The notes below the pieces were generated by a model. That model saw nothing but the letters and a program-made list of their open reading frames with translations, made no database searches and had not been told where the DNA came from. The position numbers and the translations under genes are program-made. A stretch of 64,000 nt of DNA from an uncultured Bacilli bacterium (lineage in GTDB: Bacteria; Bacillota_I; Bacilli_A; RF39; UBA660), in assembly GCA_947630055.1 (NCBI GenBank), contig CANRGA010000001.1, positions 10,195-74,194 of the forward strand. Direction: 5' to 3'. Of this stretch, positions 6,824-13,544 are shown piece after piece (the first letter of the stretch is position 1; every line of letters starts with the position of its first letter).

Positions 6824-7231
6824 ATGAAGGAATCGTATTGGGGATATTGGTTAGTTTTATTAGGTGTATTTGTTGTCGTAATATTGTTATTGATTCAAAA
6901 CTTAACAACAAATAATACAGAAAGCAGTTATTCTATAAGACAAATAAGTGAAGCAGCGATGATTGATGCAGTTGACTATGCATATTATAGAGAATATGGT
7001 GAACTTAAAATAAATAGAGAAAAATTTATTGAAAGTTTTATGAGAAGATTTGCTGAAACAGCTTCATTATCAAACAAATATACTTTAACATTTGCTGGTA
7101 TATATGAAGCACCACCTAAAGTAGGTGTTCAAATAACCAGTAAAACAAATACATATTTTATTGCAAATTCTGCTGAAGAATTTGATATGGAGAATAGAGT
7201 AGAAGCAATATTAGAACAAAGTAATAAATAG
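6824..7231 (+). CDS. Pilin-like / TadE-like minor subunit candidate
   Basis: N-terminus MKESYWG followed by a 20-aa hydrophobic helix. Same M[KR]E..G pattern as the four downstream pilin-like ORFs. Confidence 0.4.
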   Translation: MKESYWGYWLVLLGVFVVVILLLIQNLTTNNTESSYSIRQISEAAMIDAVDYAYYREYGELKINREKFIESFMRRFAETASLSNKYTLTFAGIYEAPPKVGVQITSKTNTYFIANSAEEFDMENRVEAILEQSNK

Positions 7232-7242
7232 GAGGAATAAAA

Positions 7243-8010
7243 ATGGGAAATTTAGTGGCAACATTAAAACGATTTATTCAAAATAAAAATACAGTTACTA
7301 TTTTAGCCGTACTTGCTGGTATTATAATATTATGGTATTTTTATAACTATCGAGTAAATCAAGCCGTAACGACTGTTGAAATACCTTATGCAATTGATCA
7401 AATAGATACACGAAAGAAAATTGAAACAGATAATCTTAAAACTAGAGAAATAACAAGAGCTGCTTTAAAAGATAATGATTTAGTTGAATCAATTGCAGAT
7501 TTAGAGGGTAAATACATATGTGTAGGAACTAGCATACCTGCAAATGGCTTTTTCCATAAATCACAAGTTTGTGAAGAAAGAGATTTACCGAATTCTGTTA
7601 ATGAAAACTTACCAGAAGGATATACTCTTGCTAATATAAAAGTTACAAATGAGACTACATATGCTAACTCTATATCTGAAGGTGATTATATCGATATTTA
7701 TATGTATGCTAAAGATGCTAATAATCAAGCATTATATGGTAAATTAATTGAGAAAATCAAAGTACTAGAAGTAAGAGATAATAGTGGTAAAAATATATTC
7801 TGGGATGCGACTGCTGGTGAATCTGCTCAATTATTATTTGGTGTTCCAGATGAATATGCTGATTTATTCGATATAGCAAGTAGAACAAATGGTATTACTT
7901 TAGTACCTAGATTAAGAAATGCTGCTTATTCAAAAAATCCAGGTGAAACTGAAATTTCTAGTGAAGAATTAAGAGCATTTATAATGAATCAAGTACAATT
8001 AGTAGAATAG
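7243..8010 (+). CDS. CpaB/RcpC-like Flp pilus assembly protein
   Basis: Single N-terminal TM followed by a beta-rich (SAF-like) body. Lies immediately upstream of the CpaF-like ATPase, as in tad loci. Confidence 0.5.
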   Translation: MGNLVATLKRFIQNKNTVTILAVLAGIIILWYFYNYRVNQAVTTVEIPYAIDQIDTRKKIETDNLKTREITRAALKDNDLVESIADLEGKYICVGTSIPANGFFHKSQVCEERDLPNSVNENLPEGYTLANIKVTNETTYANSISEGDYIDIYMYAKDANNQALYGKLIEKIKVLEVRDNSGKNIFWDATAGESAQLLFGVPDEYADLFDIASRTNGITLVPRLRNAAYSKNPGETEISSEELRAFIMNQVQLVE

Positions 8011-8033
8011 AAAGGGAAAGGACGGGGCTTTAA

Positions 8034-9125
8034 GTGAATGATGCAATATTTTCACAAATTGATTTTGGACCTTTAAAAGAATTTTTAGATGATGATAATA
8101 TAACCGATATTTCTTATGGAAATGGTGGACAAATTCATTTAAAAACTTTGGATAAAGGTGTTTATCGTATTGAAAAGCCAGAAATAAATAATGCACTTTT
8201 AGAAAAATTAGCTTTTCAATGTTCCAATGTTATGGGAAAAACATTTAATATGGCCCATCCATTTCTTGATGCAGAATCAGCTGAATTACGTTTAAACTTT
8301 ATTCATGATTCTATTGCTACTAATGGAATAGCTTGTGTTATCAGAAAAACACCTGCTAAAATAAGACTTAATAAAAAAAAATTAATAAGTGAAAAATATG
8401 TAACTGAAAATTTATTGGACTTTTTACTTACGTGTGTTGAAGGACATTGTAACATTATTGTAAGTGGAGAAACTGGTAGTGGTAAAACAGAACTTGTTAA
8501 ATATTTAGCCAGTCACACTAAAGAAAATGAAAAAGTTATAACAATTGAAGATACACTAGAACTACACTTAGATAAAATTTTTCCTCATCGTGATATAGTA
8601 GCAATGAAAACTAATAATATAGCTAGTTATAGTGATGTATTAGTAGCCTGCATGAGACAAAACCCACGATGGATTTTACTATCCGAAGTTCGTAGTGCTG
8701 AAGCTGTTACGGCAGTTCGTAACTCAATATCATCTGGACATAATATTTTATCTACTATTCACTCAGATCGAGCTTTAAATGTGCCAATGCGTATGTATTC
8801 GTTACTAGAATCAAATCAAGATATTGATCAATTTTTAAAATCAATTCATAGATATGTTCAACTTGCTATTCATGTTAAAGGATATATGAGTGCTGAACTT
8901 GGAAGATTCCAAAGAGAAATAGTAGAAGTTTGTGAATTTTATGTTGATGAAGATAATAATGCGGGTGCTAATATAATATATAAAAAGAATTTAGATGGAG
9001 CAATTCATTTTAATAATCCAACAAAACATTTAAAAGAATATTTAGGCAGTCAAGGAGTTGTTATTAAAGACAATTTATTTGTTGCAGATAATGAATCAAA
9101 TGAAGAAGCAATAGATACATTATAA
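8034..9125 (+). CDS. CpaF/TadA-type (VirB11 superfamily) secretion ATPase
   Basis: Walker A SGETGSGKTE, Walker B/Asp box RQNPRWILLSEVRSAEA, His box GHNILSTIHSD. GTG start after the RBS GGACGGGG. Confidence 0.8.
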   Translation: MNDAIFSQIDFGPLKEFLDDDNITDISYGNGGQIHLKTLDKGVYRIEKPEINNALLEKLAFQCSNVMGKTFNMAHPFLDAESAELRLNFIHDSIATNGIACVIRKTPAKIRLNKKKLISEKYVTENLLDFLLTCVEGHCNIIVSGETGSGKTELVKYLASHTKENEKVITIEDTLELHLDKIFPHRDIVAMKTNNIASYSDVLVACMRQNPRWILLSEVRSAEAVTAVRNSISSGHNILSTIHSDRALNVPMRMYSLLESNQDIDQFLKSIHRYVQLAIHVKGYMSAELGRFQREIVEVCEFYVDEDNNAGANIIYKKNLDGAIHFNNPTKHLKEYLGSQGVVIKDNLFVADNESNEEAIDTL

Positions 9126-9143
9126 AAAGGGAGGTGCATAATT

Positions 9144-11566: not shown

Positions 11567-12079
11567 ATGCGGGAAGCAATTGGAGGAATATCCATATTTC
11601 AAATAGTTATATTTTTTATATTGTTATTTACAGGGGTTATGTGCTTAACTATTAATCACTCTAAAGCTTTTGGCGTTAAAGATGAAATAATAACAATAAT
11701 AGAAAATGAACCATTAGGAAGTACTTCTACTTCTTCTTTTGGTTTGAGTGAAAGTACAATGGATAAAATTGCTGAGCATTTAAAAGATGCTGGATATAGA
11801 ATTACTGGTAATTGTCCGAATGGATATCAAGGATATAATCGGGAAGGAAATCCCACTAATAATGATGCATCATTTTGTATAAAAGCTAATAAGGTAGAAG
11901 ATAAATTTTATAAAGATGCTAGAGAAAAATGTACTGGCAATAAATGTGTTGTTACAACTGGTGATTTTCCAAATATGGTATACTACGATATAGTATTATT
12001 TTTCCAATTAGACATTCCATTTGTTAAAGATTTATTTGAATTTAATGTAATGGGTTCTACTAAGACTATATTTGGATAG
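11567..12079 (+). CDS. TadE/pseudopilin-like minor pilin candidate
   Basis: MREAIG|GISIFQIVIFFILLFTGVM leader plus helix; ~140-aa Cys-containing ectodomain. Confidence 0.45.
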   Translation: MREAIGGISIFQIVIFFILLFTGVMCLTINHSKAFGVKDEIITIIENEPLGSTSTSSFGLSESTMDKIAEHLKDAGYRITGNCPNGYQGYNREGNPTNNDASFCIKANKVEDKFYKDAREKCTGNKCVVTTGDFPNMVYYDIVLFFQLDIPFVKDLFEFNVMGSTKTIFG

Positions 12080-12089
12080 GTGATATAAA

Positions 12090-12551
12090 ATGCGCGAATC
12101 AATAGGAACTCAAACAATTTTTAAAGCTGTCTTGATTTTCACTTTTTTATTTTCTGGCTTTATTGCAGTTGCAATAACATATAATAAAGCCTTTAAATTA
12201 AAAAATGAGACTATTAATATTTTAGAAAAATATGAAGGCGTTAATAAACAATCTTTAACTATCATTAATAACTATTTGAATCAAAATGGTTATTCTACTA
12301 AAAATCCTTGTGATACCACTGAATATGGAGTAGCAGATTTAAAAAATCCAACATATGAAAAAAGTAATCCTAATAGTAGGTATTATTATTGTCTTTCTTC
12401 TGAGGTAAAAAATAATCAAATATTTTATGGTATTAAATTATTTTCAAGATTTAATTTACCTATAATTGGAGATTTATTCTATTTTAGAGTTACTGGAGAG
12501 ACAAAAGGTATTAAATTATATGATAATAAACAAAGATTAGAAAATAATTAG
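12090..12551 (+). CDS. TadE/pseudopilin-like minor pilin candidate (paralog)
   Basis: MRESIG|TQTIFKAVLIFTFLFSGFI. The C-terminal motif (FNLPIIGDLFYFRVTGETK) parallels the preceding ORF (LDIPFVKDLFEFNVMGSTK). Confidence 0.45.
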   Translation: MRESIGTQTIFKAVLIFTFLFSGFIAVAITYNKAFKLKNETINILEKYEGVNKQSLTIINNYLNQNGYSTKNPCDTTEYGVADLKNPTYEKSNPNSRYYYCLSSEVKNNQIFYGIKLFSRFNLPIIGDLFYFRVTGETKGIKLYDNKQRLENN

Positions 12552-12563
12552 GGAGATGTGAAT

Positions 12564-13544
12564 ATGAATGTAATAGTATCAAATAAATATCAATCATTAC
12601 TAGGAACACTAGAAATAGATGTAATTAAAACAATTAATGGTGAATTTACGGTTCAAGATTTGGTAAATCAATTTAATAATTTTTTCTTTAATAAAATGAT
12701 AATTGATATAACTGCTATTAAAAATTATGAAAATATTAATATAATGCGGGAATTATCATTGAATTTTGAAATGGATAAAATAATTATCTTGTTAGATGAT
12801 TCACCAAGTGTAAATTCAGCAAATTATTTATCTCAATTGGTATCTTTTGGTATTTATAATTTTACAAGAAGTGTAGATGCTATTCCATTTTTAATAGATA
12901 ATCCAAATTCTTATAAAGATGTAGCGGCATATCAAAATTTAAATCCAGATACTAATTTGGACAGTAAAAAAGTTAAAGAAATTGCTCCTGTTAAAATGGA
13001 GCAAAGAGTAATTGGCTTTAAGAATGTTACTGAACATGCAGGAGCTACTACTTTAATATATATGTTAAAAAAGCATTTACAAAGTGAATATAAAGTTAAA
13101 GCAATTGAAGTAAATGCAACCGATTTTGAAAATTTTAATGATAAATCACTTGAAAGTGCTGATTTTATGAATATTTCAATAAAATTAGCAAATAATAGTG
13201 ATGCCGATGTTATTTTAGTGGATTTAAATGATGGTCCAGAAACAATTTGTACCGAAATTATTTATCTAATTGAACCAGGTATTTTAAAATTAAATAAATT
13301 AATTAGGAATGATCGAAAAATATTTGAAAAATTAAAGAATAAAAAAATCGTTTTAAATAGAAGTGTTTTAAACGATAAAGATGTTCATGATTTTGAATAT
13401 GAAAGTGGTAGTAAAATATTCTTTAATATTCCAAGTTTAGATGAAAAATTAGATAATAATAAAAAAATAATTGAATTTTTAATTGCTTTAGGATTTTCTA
13501 GATTAGATGTAGAAAATAATAATAAAAAATTTGGTATTTTATAA
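12564..13544 (+). CDS. TadZ/CpaE-like protein (receiver-like N-domain + ParA/MinD-like domain with degenerate P-loop)
   Basis: The position where KGGxGKT(T) is expected reads FKNVTEHAGATTL. Overall ParA-like layout and last-gene position in the tad-like operon. ATG at 12564 is preferred (RBS GGGAG). Confidence 0.4.
   Translation: MNVIVSNKYQSLLGTLEIDVIKTINGEFTVQDLVNQFNNFFFNKMIIDITAIKNYENINIMRELSLNFEMDKIIILLDDSPSVNSANYLSQLVSFGIYNFTRSVDAIPFLIDNPNSYKDVAAYQNLNPDTNLDSKKVKEIAPVKMEQRVIGFKNVTEHAGATTLIYMLKKHLQSEYKVKAIEVNATDFENFNDKSLESADFMNISIKLANNSDADVILVDLNDGPETICTEIIYLIEPGILKLNKLIRNDRKIFEKLKNKKIVLNRSVLNDKDVHDFEYESGSKIFFNIPSLDEKLDNNKKIIEFLIALGFSRLDVENNNKKFGIL

What the first reader, a model, noticed from the sequence alone, without database searches (positions are those of the whole stretch)
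6824..13544. Tad/type IVc-like pilus machinery with no prepilin peptidase in the window
The gene order is CpaB-like, CpaF/TadA ATPase (clear Walker A, Walker B and His boxes), TadB-like, TadC-like, then a terminator and a new promoter. After that come two small pilins, two larger pseudopilin-like proteins and a TadZ-like protein. No TadV/CpaA-type aspartic prepilin peptidase ORF lies in or near the locus. None of the polytopic proteins in the window shows the paired-Asp/GxGD pattern. No secretin is expected in a monoderm.
Basis: partly seen in the sequence, partly recalled or inferred. Interest (0 to 1): 0.65.

Follow-up and report, generated by a model that had tools for sequence, protein, structure and literature searches.

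The report
Pilus-like module inside a Gram-positive T4SS
The "Tad pilus" genes are real, but they are a pilus-assembly module built into a chromosomal conjugation-type secretion system of uncultured gut Bacilli, a module also found unrecognised in plasmid pLS20, whose pilin-like subunits have almost no leader peptide, which may explain the missing prepilin peptidase.

Summary
The genes at 6824-13544 are real and conserved in order in about 80 species-level genomes of uncultured gut Bacilli.

**What the parts are**
- The ATPase belongs to the CpaF/VirB11 family.
- The CpaB/RcpC-like assignment is supported.
- The "TadZ-like" assignment is not verified.
- Five proteins (DUF5411, two small Cys-rich pilins, two larger ones) share a 6-9 residue charged N-terminus followed by a hydrophobic helix.

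**Peptidase.** No A24 peptidase is found in the window or in 80 related loci.

- The block is contiguous with a Gram-positive T4SS (VirB2-, VirB3-, VirB4- and VirB6-like proteins, a wall hydrolase, CD1115-type VirD4).
- It is homologous to pLS20 genes 36-39, including the ATPase annotated there as "VirB11".
- The locus is chromosomal and has no detectable relaxase.

**Best reading.** This is a Tad-related filament module coupled to a monoderm T4SS. Its pilins are either leaderless or processed by a peptidase encoded elsewhere in the genome. All evidence is computational.

The parts
2267..2980 (+). 237-aa secreted protein with a C-terminal membrane anchor; first gene of the conserved block
   Evidence: It has an N-terminal signal-like sequence and a C-terminal TM segment. 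It is syntenic in 64 loci at a median 33% identity. No family hit.
2983..6807 (+). 1274-aa Cys-rich secreted protein, adhesin-like by position
   Evidence: It has a signal peptide and no Pfam hit. It is syntenic in 67 loci but very divergent, at a median 27% identity. It occupies the slot of the thioester, isopeptide or Ig-like adhesins that precede the same module on pLS20-type, Enterococcus, Listeria and Priestia plasmids.
6824..7231 (+). DUF5411 protein with a pilin-like N-terminus (MKESYWGYW followed by a hydrophobic helix); homologue of pLS20 gene 36
   Evidence: Pfam DUF5411 E=6e-53. hhalign against the pLS20 gene-36 family gives probability 93%, E=3e-7.
7243..8010 (+). CpaB/RcpC-like protein (N-terminal TM segment, SAF domain, RcpC domain)
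   Evidence: TIGR03177 CpaB E=8e-10 over nearly its full length, below the cutoff. Pfam RcpC scores 27.5 bits against a cutoff of 28.8. RcpC is hit by 24 of 24 family members and SAF by 9. hhalign against the Priestia 'SAF domain protein' gives probability 99.5%, E=3e-22.
8034..9125 (+). Secretion ATPase of the CpaF/VirB11 family (363 aa)
   Evidence: PF00437 E=2.5e-29. All NCBIfam models are far below cutoff: VirB11 110 bits, TrbB 94, TadA-conjugation 92, FlaI 88. Against PDB sequences: CpaF 70 bits, archaeal GspE 65, FlaI 64.5, VirB11 56. It is 31-33% identical to the 'CpaF/VirB11 family' ATPases of pLS20-type plasmids. It is 75-94% identical in 80 related loci.
9144..10049 (+). TadB-like platform protein (first T2SSF-like half)
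10049..10837 (+). TadC-like platform protein (second T2SSF-like half); homologue of pLS20 gene 39
10837..10862 (+). AT-rich hairpin with a T-run (terminator-like) directly after the TadC-like stop codon
   Evidence: The sequence is AAAATTCC-TTTA-GGAATTTT followed by TTTAT. The fold has z=-2.9. The scanner missed it because the stem has only 2 G-C pairs. Function is not shown.
10931..10959 (+). Promoter-like site in front of the pilin genes
   Evidence: TTGCTA-17-TATAAT matches 10 of 12 positions. Promoter-like matches are not enriched over shuffles in this AT-rich DNA, so this is weak evidence. The RBS AAAGGAGG lies at 10973-10980. This intergenic gap is an insertion hot spot in related loci.
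10991..11269 (+). Small pilin-like protein 1 (92 aa)
   Evidence: Its N-terminus MKEATGELN is 92-100% conserved. It is followed by a roughly 20-residue hydrophobic helix, an invariant W30-P31 and a variable head with 4 or 6 Cys. It is a paralogue of pilin 2 (E=8e-48).
11286..11552 (+). Small pilin-like protein 2 (88 aa)
   Evidence: It has the same N-terminal signature and 6 Cys. In some relatives G6 is replaced by Q.
11567..12079 (+). Larger pilin-like protein (170 aa), minor-pilin-like
   Evidence: It has an M[KR]E[AS]x[GS] N-terminus and a hydrophobic helix. It is a paralogue of the next gene (E=3e-44). In relatives it is fused to Peptidase_M15 (E=1e-11) or to a CHAP peptidoglycan hydrolase (E=3e-15). 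It has a weak similarity to pLS20 gene 40/DUF4320 (E about 1e-3).
12090..12551 (+). Larger pilin-like protein (153 aa), minor-pilin-like
   Evidence: Its N-terminal 29 columns align with the small pilins (probability 57%, E=1e-4). A few family members hit Pfam Tad (TadE/G-like) or archaeal Pilin_N weakly.
12558..13544 (+).
   Evidence: It is syntenic in 57 loci at a median 60% identity, and also in 27-35%-identity relatives (L086, L087). There is no Pfam, NCBIfam or PDB hit. hhalign against MinD is not significant. The motifs NVTEHAGATTL and DVILVDLND resemble a lysine-less deviant Walker A and a Walker B by eye only.
13756..22313 (+). Lineage-specific insertion: a 2472-aa M26-peptidase-like surface protein plus a YhcG nuclease
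   Evidence: Peptidase_M26_C E=1e-31. YhcG is identified. Only L007 shares the large gene; in 49 loci the VirB2-like gene follows the TadZ-like gene directly.
22398..22763 (+). VirB2-like T4SS pilin candidate
   Evidence: PF18895 T4SS_pilin E=2e-4, below the cutoff. It is present in 49 related loci immediately after the TadZ-like gene.
26589..28862 (+). VirB6-like polytopic T4SS protein
   Evidence: NCBIfam pLS20_p028 family E=6.5e-6, which is weak and far below the cutoff.
28885..31527 (+). VirB3-like protein (TcpE/PrgI) and a VirB4 ATPase split into two ORFs
   Evidence: TcpE/PrgI are weak hits. The TraG P-loop, AAA_10 and CagE_TrbE_VirB domains are found. The N-terminal part matches mycoplasma ICE VirB4. 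tblastn with pLS20 VirB4 gives E=4.5e-32.
31652..34504 (+). T4SS cell-wall hydrolase (SpoIID-like, M23 and lysozyme domains)
   Evidence: Peptidase_M23 E=9e-23 and Phage_lysozyme2 E=1e-12.
36417..38636 (+). VirD4 coupling protein, CD1115 family; last T4SS gene before housekeeping genes
   Evidence: NCBIfam conju_CD1115 scores 292.6 bits, above the cutoff of 250. Pfam T4SS-DNA_transf E=4e-53. It belongs to the same family as the VirD4 of pLS20, pZB18, Virgibacillus and P. larvae plasmids.

Best explanation
The region encodes a Tad-related, type-IV-filament-like assembly module that is one functional part of a Gram-positive (pLS20/CD1115-type) type IV secretion system.

**Proposed mechanism**
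- A hexameric CpaF/VirB11-family ATPase sits on a membrane platform made of two paralogous GspF-fold proteins.
- This motor extracts pilin-like subunits from the membrane by their hydrophobic N-terminal helix and polymerises them.
- The subunits are two small Cys-rich major-type pilins, two larger minor-type pilins and the DUF5411 protein.
- The result is a short filament or pseudopilus that passes through the cell wall. A CpaB/RcpC-like protein is thought to guide it.
- The filament is thought to display the upstream giant Cys-rich adhesin-like proteins. In some relatives it carries peptidoglycan hydrolase domains fused to a minor pilin.
- It would thereby make or stabilise contact with a partner cell and open the walls for the adjacent VirB4/VirB6/VirD4 channel.

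**Pilin processing.** The pilins start only 6-9 residues before the helix and carry conserved acidic residues at positions 3 and 7. They are either used without cleavage (leaderless) or cut by an A24 peptidase encoded elsewhere in the genome.

**Mobility.** In this organism the whole system is chromosomal, widely conserved and without a recognisable relaxase. It may therefore be a domesticated cell-cell interaction or DNA/protein transfer system rather than an active conjugative element.

**Shown:** gene content, homologies, the fold of one platform protein, synteny and linkage to the T4SS, and absence of an A24 peptidase locally.

**Inferred:** that a filament is made, its role, and how the pilins are processed.
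For: **ATPase**
- It is a T2SSE-superfamily ATPase whose closest solved relative is CpaF.

**Platform proteins**
- The TadB-like family matches a RefSeq 'T2SS F family' protein at E=2e-7.
- Both families map onto the two halves of fused ~500-aa relatives (E=5e-13 and 3e-25). This reproduces the two-repeat GspF/PilC architecture.
- T2SSF is the most recurrent Pfam family among distant relatives.

**CpaB/RcpC-like protein**
- RcpC is hit by 24 of 24 family members.

**Pilin-like proteins**
- Five paralogous or analogous proteins share a short charged N-terminus and a hydrophobic helix.
- The small ones have a head of 2-3 putative disulfides.
- Minor-pilin homologues are fused to M15 or CHAP wall hydrolases.

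**Conservation pattern**
- Cytoplasmic and membrane parts are conserved: ATPase median 84% identity, platforms 69-74%.
- Exposed parts diverge: pilins 39-50%, adhesin-like protein 27%.

**Linkage to a T4SS**
- The block is contiguous with T4SS genes in the window and in related loci.
- The same ATPase/platform/small-protein module lies inside T4SS operons of pLS20-type, Enterococcus, Listeria, Virgibacillus and P. larvae plasmids and in a metagenomic contig.
- Homology to pLS20 genes 36 and 39 is significant.

**Chromosomal setting and peptidase**
- The setting is chromosomal, with no relaxase or integrase detected.
- No A24 peptidase is found in the window or in 80 loci.
Against: - No filament has been observed. 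All evidence is computational.
- The window proteins themselves do not reach any Pfam or NCBIfam T2SSF, TadA or Flp threshold.
- The ATPase's best HMM is VirB11, not TadA.
- The TadB-like structure model is poor, and its fold search is inconclusive.
- The small pilins have no detectable sequence homology to Flp, ComGC or the pLS20 gene-41 peptides.
- The top structural match, SpoIIIAB, belongs to a machine for which no pilus is known.
- The TadZ-like label is unsupported.
- Absence of a relaxase rests on a 64-kb window and on HMM and BLAST sensitivity.
- The rest of the genome could not be searched for an A24 peptidase.
Confidence: 0.6

Rival explanations
1. This is a self-contained Tad/Flp (type IVc) adhesion pilus. 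Its pilins are processed by a TadV/ComC-type A24 peptidase encoded elsewhere in the genome, and its position next to a T4SS is incidental.
For: - A CpaB/RcpC-like protein, a CpaF-like ATPase and two platform proteins in Tad order are present.
- Related DUF5411-CpaB-ATPase-T2SSF modules occur without an adjacent T4SS on a Priestia plasmid.
- A CpaF+PilC+DUF5411 operon was predicted in Clostridia (PMC9523054).
- G at position 6 of the main pilins would fit a six-residue leader, as in type IVa pilins.
Against: - Linkage to the T4SS genes is conserved across dozens of species and across unrelated plasmids.
- There is no Flp G/XXXXEY motif and no Flp or TadE/F Pfam hit at threshold.
- G6 is replaced by Q, S or E in about 8% of small pilins and in half or more of the larger ones.
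- The analogous peptides of pLS20-type systems and of L084 have A, T or E at position 6.
- No A24 peptidase lies within about 10 kb in 80 loci.
Confidence: 0.15
2. No pilus is made. The ATPase and its GspF-fold partners act like SpoIIIAA/SpoIIIAB of the sporulation feeding-tube complex, or like VirB11. They would be an energising or gating module of the T4SS channel, and the small single-helix proteins would be static channel or wall-spanning subunits.
For: - The best NCBIfam model for the ATPase is VirB11.
- The pLS20 literature treats the ATPase as the T4SS VirB11 (PMC8557374).
- A separate VirB2-like pilin candidate already exists in the cluster. VirB2-like pili are now reported for Gram-positive T4SSs (bioRxiv 10.64898/2025.12.18.695078).
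Against: - The two-repeat platform, the CpaB/RcpC-like protein and a set of major-type plus minor-type proteins with pilin-like N-termini and disulfide-rich heads are what a filament machine needs. They are not known parts of SpoIIIA or VirB11 systems.
- Wall-hydrolase domains fused to a minor-pilin homologue argue for an extracellular, exposed location.
- The module also occurs without a T4SS.
Confidence: 0.15
3. The whole 2-39 kb cluster is an active integrative conjugative element. Its relaxase, oriT and integrase lie outside the window or are too divergent to detect. The module would be its mating-pair-formation pilus, analogous to the R64/TP114 thin pilus.
For: - The T4SS includes a VirD4 coupling protein of the CD1115 conjugation family, scoring above the cutoff.
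- All characterised relatives are on conjugative plasmids.
- Transposon-like and nuclease cargo genes interrupt the cluster.
Against: - No relaxase, integrase or replication gene is found by Pfam in any ORF of 70 aa or more, and pLS20 MobP2 gives no tblastn hit.
- Housekeeping genes (secE, nusG, typA, tyrS, bacA) follow directly.
- At least 564 species-level genomes carry a relative that is 75-94% identical, with graded divergence rather than near-identity. Contigs reach 1 Mb.
- L019 keeps the same downstream housekeeping neighbours after losing the pilin/T4SS part.
Confidence: 0.2

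Closest known systems
Tad/Flp (type IVc) pilus systems, e.g. Caulobacter Cpa, Aggregatibacter Tad
   Same: - A CpaF-like ATPase, which is the closest solved relative.
- Two separate single-repeat GspF-fold platform proteins in the TadB-TadC order.
- A CpaB/RcpC-like protein.
- Small pilins plus larger pseudopilin-like proteins.
   Different: - No Flp G/XXXXEY motif, no A24 peptidase in the locus and no verifiable TadZ.
- The platform proteins and ATPase are below all family thresholds.
- The pilins carry a six-residue pre-helix segment, MKEATG, and a Cys-rich head.
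- The module is embedded in a T4SS operon.
Conjugation operon of Bacillus subtilis plasmid pLS20, genes 34-48 (with Enterococcus pZB18, Listeria pLIS25 and Virgibacillus plasmids)
   Same: - The same order: adhesin, a small N-terminal-TM protein, the ATPase ('VirB11', gene 37), two membrane proteins of about 250 aa (genes 38, 39), small single-helix proteins, a VirB2-like protein, and VirD4 of the CD1115 family.
- Significant profile homology for genes 36 and 39, and for gene 38 to the platform family.
   Different: - The plasmid systems lack the CpaB-like and 'TadZ-like' genes.
- They have a relaxase and are demonstrably conjugative.
- Their small peptides (MLDQNxDR...) are not detectably homologous to the window pilins.
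- The literature calls gene 37 VirB11, leaves genes 36 and 38-45 as unknown, and states that Gram-positive elements make no conjugative pili (PMC8557374).
SpoIIIAA-SpoIIIAB of the sporulation SpoIIIA-SpoIIQ complex
   Different: SpoIIIA has one GspF-like protein, no pilin-like set and no CpaB. It is not linked to VirB4/VirD4.
Type IV 'thin' pili of IncI plasmids (R64, TP114)
   Same: A type IV filament machine encoded next to a conjugative T4SS. It displays adhesins and promotes mating in liquid or in the gut (PMC9045228, listed).
   Different: Those are canonical type IVb pili of diderm bacteria, with PilS/PilV prepilins, a dedicated prepilin peptidase and a secretin.
Relaxase-less MPF-FATA-type T4SS of Patescibacteria
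   Same: A chromosomal, widely conserved monoderm-type T4SS without a relaxase in small-genome bacteria, proposed to be co-opted for cell-cell interaction (PMC12102498).
   Different: It occurs in a different phylum. No embedded ATPase/GspF-fold/CpaB module is described there; type IV pili are encoded separately.
Uncharacterised CpaF + PilC/GspF + DUF5411 + internalin-like operon predicted in Roseburia, Ruminococcus and Eubacterium (Miller et al. 2022)
   Same: It shares the DUF5411 protein, the CpaF-like ATPase, the GspF-like platform and an adhesin-like gene (PMC9523054).
   Different: It was described only as a predicted 'secretion-related system'. The paper does not discuss a T4SS link, pilins or the peptidase question.

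Membership tests
Tad/Flp type IVc pilus system | TadA/CpaF-type ATPase | tested here: inconclusive
   PF00437 is met (E=2.5e-29), and CpaF is the closest solved sequence (70 bits against 56 for VirB11). However, the NCBIfam TadA-type model scores 92 bits against a cutoff of 373, and the VirB11 model scores higher at 110 bits.
Tad/Flp type IVc pilus system | TadB and TadC platform proteins carrying a T2SSF domain | tested here: inconclusive
Tad/Flp type IVc pilus system | Flp pilin with a leader peptide and the G/XXXXEY processing motif | tested here: not met
   The pilins begin MKEATGELN. There is no EY motif and no Flp_Fap Pfam hit.
Tad/Flp type IVc pilus system | TadV/CpaA A24 prepilin peptidase | tested here: not met
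   No PF01478-type hit is found in any window ORF of 70 aa or more. The GxGD-type regex gives no match in the window and 80 loci. The rest of the genome could not be tested with these tools.
Tad/Flp type IVc pilus system | TadZ/CpaE (atypical receiver domain plus ParA/MinD-type ATPase) | tested here: inconclusive
   The candidate gene at 12558-13544 is conserved, but it has no Pfam, NCBIfam or PDB match. hhalign against MinD is not significant.
Tad/Flp type IVc pilus system | CpaB/RcpC | tested here: met
   TIGR03177 aligns over nearly its full length at E=8e-10, below the cutoff. Pfam RcpC is hit in 24 of 24 family members and SAF in 9.
Type IV filament superfamily (general) | The triad of secretion ATPase, GspF-fold platform and pilins with a class III-type N-terminus (short charged segment plus hydrophobic helix) | tested here: met
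   See for the ATPase and platform, and for the pilin-like N-termini. Polymerisation is not testable with these tools.
Type IV filament superfamily (general) | Prepilin cleavage after a conserved Gly (or Ala/Ser) by an aspartic A24 peptidase | not testable with these tools
   G6 is present in 92% of small pilins but in only 50-72% of the larger ones. No peptidase is encoded locally. N-terminal sequencing and whole-genome searches are needed.
pLS20/CD1115-type Gram-positive conjugative T4SS | VirD4-like coupling protein of the CD1115 family | tested here: met
   NCBIfam NF045973 scores 292.6 bits against a cutoff of 250.
pLS20/CD1115-type Gram-positive conjugative T4SS | VirB4 ATPase, VirB6-like (pLS20_p028) protein, VirB3-like protein and a cell-wall hydrolase | tested here: met
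   VirB4 domains are found, with tblastn E=4.5e-32 to pLS20 VirB4. The M23/lysozyme hydrolase is identified. The p028 match is only weak, at 25 bits against a cutoff of 150.
pLS20/CD1115-type Gram-positive conjugative T4SS | Homologues of pLS20 genes 36-39 (small TM protein, 'VirB11', two membrane proteins) | tested here: met
   The ATPase is 32% identical. Gene 36 matches at E=3e-7. Gene 39 matches at E=8e-7 to 1e-15, and gene 38 matches the platform profiles at E=2e-6 to 3e-6.
pLS20/CD1115-type Gram-positive conjugative T4SS | Relaxase and oriT (a conjugative element) | tested here: not met
   No relaxase family is hit in any window ORF. pLS20 MobP2 gives no tblastn hit. oriT was not tested.
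VirB11 (T4SS traffic ATPase) | Equivalog-level match to VirB11/TrbB and no GspF-type partner | tested here: not met
   TIGR02788 scores 110 bits against a cutoff of 250. The gene is followed by two GspF-fold proteins.

The most novel reading that the evidence does not exclude
Gram-positive T4SSs of the pLS20/CD1115 type contain an unrecognised Tad-derived type IV filament machine.
- Its pilins are naturally leaderless. They follow the pattern Met-x-[D/E]-x-x-x-[D/E] followed by a hydrophobic helix, and so would need no prepilin peptidase.
- The ATPase long called 'VirB11' in pLS20 would then be the pilus motor.
- In uncultured small-genome gut Bacilli (RF39-like), the combined filament and T4SS apparatus has been fixed in the chromosome without a relaxase. 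It would serve as a conserved cell-cell contact and transfer organelle, with some minor pilins carrying wall-degrading enzymes at the filament.
Probability: 0.3. Interest if true: 0.85.

Novelty: new variant of a known kind. Interest (0 to 1): 0.7.

Why it matters
**For Gram-positive conjugation.** How Gram-positive donors find partners and cross two thick walls is a long-standing gap. The textbook view is that they have no pili and no VirB11 partner proteins. If the module described here makes a filament, it gives a concrete, testable function to about ten unknown genes of the genetically tractable plasmid pLS20. It could also explain efficient liquid mating in pLS20- and pHT-type plasmids, including Enterococcus and Listeria resistance plasmids.

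**For type IV filaments.** Pilins that work without a prepilin peptidase would break a defining rule of the type IV filament superfamily.

**For gut microbiology.** The chromosomal, relaxase-less version conserved in hundreds of uncultured gut Bacilli species suggests an important cell-cell interaction organelle in an abundant, uncultured and poorly understood lineage.

Tried and rejected
- **DNA similarity.** Megablast of the region against plasmid and phage collections gave no match.
- **Narrow family profiles.** Profiles of close relatives gave nothing useful. TadB-like against TadC-like was not significant. Both against PDB sequences gave nothing.
- **Word-indexed homologue searches.** These returned only close, unannotated relatives.
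- **afdb50 fold library.** It was unavailable.
- **CpaB-like and TadZ-like profiles against PDB.** No hits.
- **TadZ-like against E. coli MinD.** Not significant.
- **Small pilins against pLS20 gene-41 peptides.** No detectable homology.
- **Relaxase hunt.** Pfam, NCBIfam and tblastn with pLS20 MobP2 were all negative.
- **Phage or plasmid origin.** Considered and rejected: housekeeping genes flank the cluster.
- **Small proteins as VirB2-type pilins.** Considered and rejected: they have one hydrophobic helix, not two.
- **Small proteins as lipoproteins.** Considered and rejected: there is no lipobox.
- **Literature.** Searches found no description of a Tad-like module in Gram-positive T4SSs.

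Full report
**1. What is in the sequence**

The window is AT-rich (about 26% G+C). Between 2267 and 13544 it carries twelve co-directional ORFs with tiny gaps.

The finding's interval, 6824-13544, holds ten of them:
- A 135-aa DUF5411 protein (Pfam E=6e-53).
- A 255-aa protein with sub-threshold but full-length similarity to CpaB/RcpC. TIGR03177 gives E=8e-10, and Pfam RcpC gives 27.5 bits against a cutoff of 28.8.
- A 363-aa T2SSE-superfamily ATPase (PF00437 E=2.5e-29). It has Walker A GETGSGKT, Walker B WILLSEVR and His box SGHNILSTIHS.
- Two membrane proteins of 301 and 262 aa with no family hit.
- Four proteins of 92, 88, 170 and 153 aa that all begin M-[K/R]-E followed by a hydrophobic stretch.
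- A 328-aa protein with no hit.

The first ORF is DUF5411, not CpaB.

**2. The genes are real and conserved**

One scan of species-representative genomes with the ATPase found at least 564 relatives. The 80 best were fetched and are 75-94% identical. Nearly all come from uncultured gut "Bacilli bacterium", "Tenericutes bacterium", Clostridium sp. CAG:609 or Candidatus Onthocola MAGs, on contigs of up to 1 Mb. I take these to be the RF39-like Bacilli; that name is my inference, not a tool result.

The whole block from 2267 to 13544 is syntenic in these loci. Median identities follow a clear pattern:

| Component | Median identity |
|---|---|
| ATPase | 84% |
| Two membrane proteins | 74% and 69% |
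| 328-aa protein | 60% |
| DUF5411 | 59% |
| Small pilins | 50% and 47% |
| CpaB-like | 43% |
| Larger pilin-like proteins | 41% and 39% |
| Upstream 237-aa protein | 33% |
| Upstream 1274-aa protein | 27% |

Conserved cytoplasmic and membrane parts with fast-evolving exposed parts are what a surface organelle would show.

**3. The platform proteins**

Profiles of close relatives were too shallow: TadB-like against TadC-like, and both against PDB sequences, gave nothing.

An exhaustive phmmer search with the 262-aa protein found 452 relatives. Among the distant ones, T2SSF was the most recurrent Pfam family, though weakly. It was hit by 6 of 42 single-domain relatives (best E=3e-3) and by 2 of 12 fused ~500-aa relatives (best E=5e-4).

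TcpE followed further down the list. Foldseek ranked the same proteins first.

The 301-aa protein modelled poorly (pLDDT 60), and its fold search is inconclusive. Profile comparisons settle its family instead:
- It aligns with the N-terminal half of the fused ~500-aa proteins (E=5e-13), while the 262-aa family aligns with the C-terminal half (E=3e-25).
- It matches the diverse 262-aa-type profile at E=7e-5.
- It matches a Priestia koreensis plasmid protein that RefSeq names "type II secretion system F family protein" at probability 93.7%, E=2e-7 over 236 columns.
- A Paenibacillus larvae plasmid homologue is annotated "FlaJ" and matches at E=3e-11.

The two proteins are therefore a split, highly diverged GspF/PilC-type platform, as TadB and TadC are.

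**4. The other components**

*ATPase.* Among solved proteins it scores best with CpaF (70 bits), then archaeal GspE and FlaI (65 and 64.5), then VirB11 (56). Among NCBIfam HMMs VirB11 is first (110 bits, against TadA-type 92), and all are far below cutoff. It is best described as CpaF/VirB11-family, unresolved between the two.

*CpaB-like protein.* RcpC is hit by all 24 family members tested, and SAF by 9. The family matches the Priestia "SAF domain" protein at E=3e-22.

*"TadZ-like" protein.* It is conserved, even in 27-35%-identity relatives. It has no detectable relation to TadZ, CpaE, ParA or MinD. Only motifs seen by eye (NVTEHAGATTL, DVILVDLND) suggest a degenerate P-loop, so the label remains unverified.

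**5. The pilin-like proteins and the peptidase question**

The small proteins start with MKEATGELN in 92-100% of 93 distinct sequences. This is followed by a hydrophobic helix of about 20 residues, an invariant Trp30-Pro31, and a variable head of 35-50 residues with 4 or 6 Cys. The first Cys is at position 43 in 83 of 93 sequences.

The two larger proteins are paralogues of each other (E=3e-44) and share the N-terminal segment with the small ones (E=1e-4). DUF5411 has the same type of N-terminus (MKESYWGYW...).

The layout resembles type IVa prepilins, which have a six-residue leader ending in Gly (from my own knowledge). However, Gly6 is not general:
- It is Q, S or E in 8% of the small pilins, although those loci also carry a Gly6 copy.
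- It is present in only 50% and 72% of the two larger families.

The positionally equivalent peptides of other systems also lack it:
- pLS20, Enterococcus, Virgibacillus and Listeria peptides begin MLD[QS]N[AT]DR.
- A metagenomic T4SS locus has MSEIIEEYGG... and MKEMIEEYSG....
- All of these keep acidic residues at positions 3 and 7.

No A24 peptidase was found:
- No window ORF of 70 aa or more gives a hit.
- The GxGD-type motif is absent from the window and all 80 related loci.
- A ComC query gives nothing significant.

Two readings remain open. The pilins may be essentially leaderless and used uncut, with Glu7 playing the part of Glu5; this is an inference. Alternatively, a host A24 peptidase encoded elsewhere cuts after Gly6. 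I could not search the rest of these genomes.

**6. The context changes the interpretation**

Downstream of the block the window encodes:
- A VirB2-like protein.
- A VirB6-like protein, with a weak pLS20_p028 match.
- A VirB3-like protein.
- A split VirB4.
- An M23/lysozyme wall hydrolase.
- A VirD4 of the CD1115 family, at 292.6 bits against a cutoff of 250.

In 49 related loci the VirB2-like gene directly follows the 328-aa gene, and the remaining T4SS genes follow where the loci reach far enough. The 2472-aa M26-peptidase-like gene and a YhcG nuclease gene at 13756-22313 are a lineage-specific insertion.

The same arrangement occurs in the conjugation operons of pLS20-type Bacillus plasmids, Enterococcus pZB18, Listeria pLIS25 and a Virgibacillus plasmid. 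That arrangement is: adhesin, small N-terminal-TM protein, ATPase, two membrane proteins of about 250 aa, small single-helix proteins, VirB2-like protein, then CD1115 VirD4.

Profile comparisons show homology to pLS20 components:
- DUF5411 to pLS20 gene 36 (E=3e-7).
- The 262-aa family to gene 39 (E=8e-7 to 1e-15).
- The platform profiles to gene 38 (E about 2e-6 to 3e-6).

The pLS20 literature calls gene 37 a putative VirB11 and lists genes 36 and 38-45 as unknown. It states that Gram-positive elements form no conjugative pili (PMC8557374; also PMC11730352). A 2025 preprint now reports VirB2-like pili in Gram-positive T4SSs but does not mention this module.

The module also exists without a neighbouring T4SS on a Priestia plasmid, in the order DUF5411, SAF/CpaB, ATPase, T2SSF. 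A CpaF+PilC+DUF5411 operon was predicted as an unknown secretion-related system in Clostridia (PMC9523054).

**7. Chromosomal, and apparently without a relaxase**

After VirD4 come rhodanese, DedA, secE, nusG, typA, tRNA-Glu, yebC, tyrS and bacA. No relaxase, integrase or replication protein is detected, and the pLS20 MobP2 relaxase finds nothing.

Three observations favour vertical inheritance of a domesticated system over a recently spreading ICE:
- The graded divergence across hundreds of species.
- The presence of the cluster on megabase contigs.
- A relative (L019) that has lost the pilin-to-VirD4 part but keeps the same downstream neighbours.

This does not exclude a relaxase elsewhere. 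A comparable relaxase-less monoderm-type T4SS has been described in Patescibacteria (PMC12102498).

**8. A functional clue**

In several relatives the 170-aa pilin-like protein is extended to 400-526 aa by a peptidoglycan hydrolase domain. L058 and L049 carry Peptidase_M15 (E=1e-11 and 3e-10), and L040 carries CHAP (E=3e-15). A wall-degrading enzyme anchored on a pilin-type helix fits a filament that has to cross, or attack, a thick cell wall.

**9. Verdict**

The interpretation, a Tad pilus oddly lacking its peptidase, is only partly right.

The best-supported explanation (confidence about 0.6) is a Tad-related type IV filament module that forms part of a pLS20/CD1115-type Gram-positive T4SS. 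Here the system is fixed in the chromosome of uncultured gut Bacilli. It fails several defining features of the Tad family (Flp motif, A24 peptidase, TadZ, family thresholds). I therefore file it as a new variant of the type IV filament kind, not as a Tad member.

The rivals are:
- An ordinary Tad pilus with a peptidase encoded elsewhere in the genome.
- A non-filament SpoIIIAA/AB- or VirB11-like energising module.
- An active ICE whose relaxase lies outside the window.

Nothing here is experimental. Filament formation, pilin processing and the cargo of the T4SS are all inferred.

Noticed in passing
window 89-1267 (-), 1457-2044 (-), 21354-22313 (+); L010 ~12.9 kb; L012, L014, L016 after the TadZ-like gene: The window holds three DUF1016/YhcG PDDEXK-nuclease paralogues, one of them truncated. 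In related genomes, copies sit at different positions inside the cluster. They behave like mobile or hot-spot cargo genes.
   Followed up: partly
window 13756-21174: A 2472-aa protein with a Peptidase_M26 (IgA1-protease-like) C-terminal region (E=1e-31) and a weak dockerin hit is inserted between the filament module and the T4SS genes. Only one of the 80 related loci (L007) shares it.
   Followed up: partly
L058 13491-15014; L049 13157-14737; L040 9903-11108: Homologues of the 170-aa pilin-like protein are fused to peptidoglycan hydrolase domains: Peptidase_M15 in L058 and L049, and CHAP in L040.
   Followed up: yes
L084 187-4676 (metagenomic contig): Here the two platform halves are fused into one 499-aa protein next to a T2SSE ATPase. 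Two uncalled Flp-like ORFs follow, beginning MSEIIEEYGG... (strong RBS) and MKEMIEEYSG... (weak RBS). The same cluster also carries CHAP, SSB, signal peptidase S26 and VirD4.
   Followed up: partly
window 29177-29740 and 29740-31527: The VirB4 ATPase is encoded as two adjacent ORFs. The 187-aa N-terminal part matches mycoplasma ICE VirB4 (E=3e-15). The same split is seen in relatives (L015, L021, L024).
   Followed up: partly
window 22861-23970 and 24153-24875: Two paralogous proteins of unknown function lie between the VirB2-like and VirB6-like genes. They are conserved in 34-44 related loci and have no family hit.
   Followed up: no
window 24891-25619: A TMEM164-family polytopic membrane protein (E=6e-18) lies inside the T4SS gene row. 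It is not found in the related loci, so it is probably not part of the machine and not a hidden peptidase.
   Followed up: partly
window 59721-60905: An IS605-family OrfB/TnpB (Cas12f-like TNB domain) gene lies among housekeeping genes.
   Followed up: no
window 41389-41929 (-): Spore-coat CotF-domain genes lie next to the cluster. This hints that the uncultured host may sporulate or retains sporulation remnants.
   Followed up: no
L091 (Priestia koreensis plasmid NZ_CP061869.1, 163.7-169.5 kb): The same module order (DUF5411, SAF/CpaB, ATPase, T2SSF, second platform) follows an Ig-like adhesin. No T4SS gene lies within 6 kb, so the module also exists on its own.
   Followed up: partly
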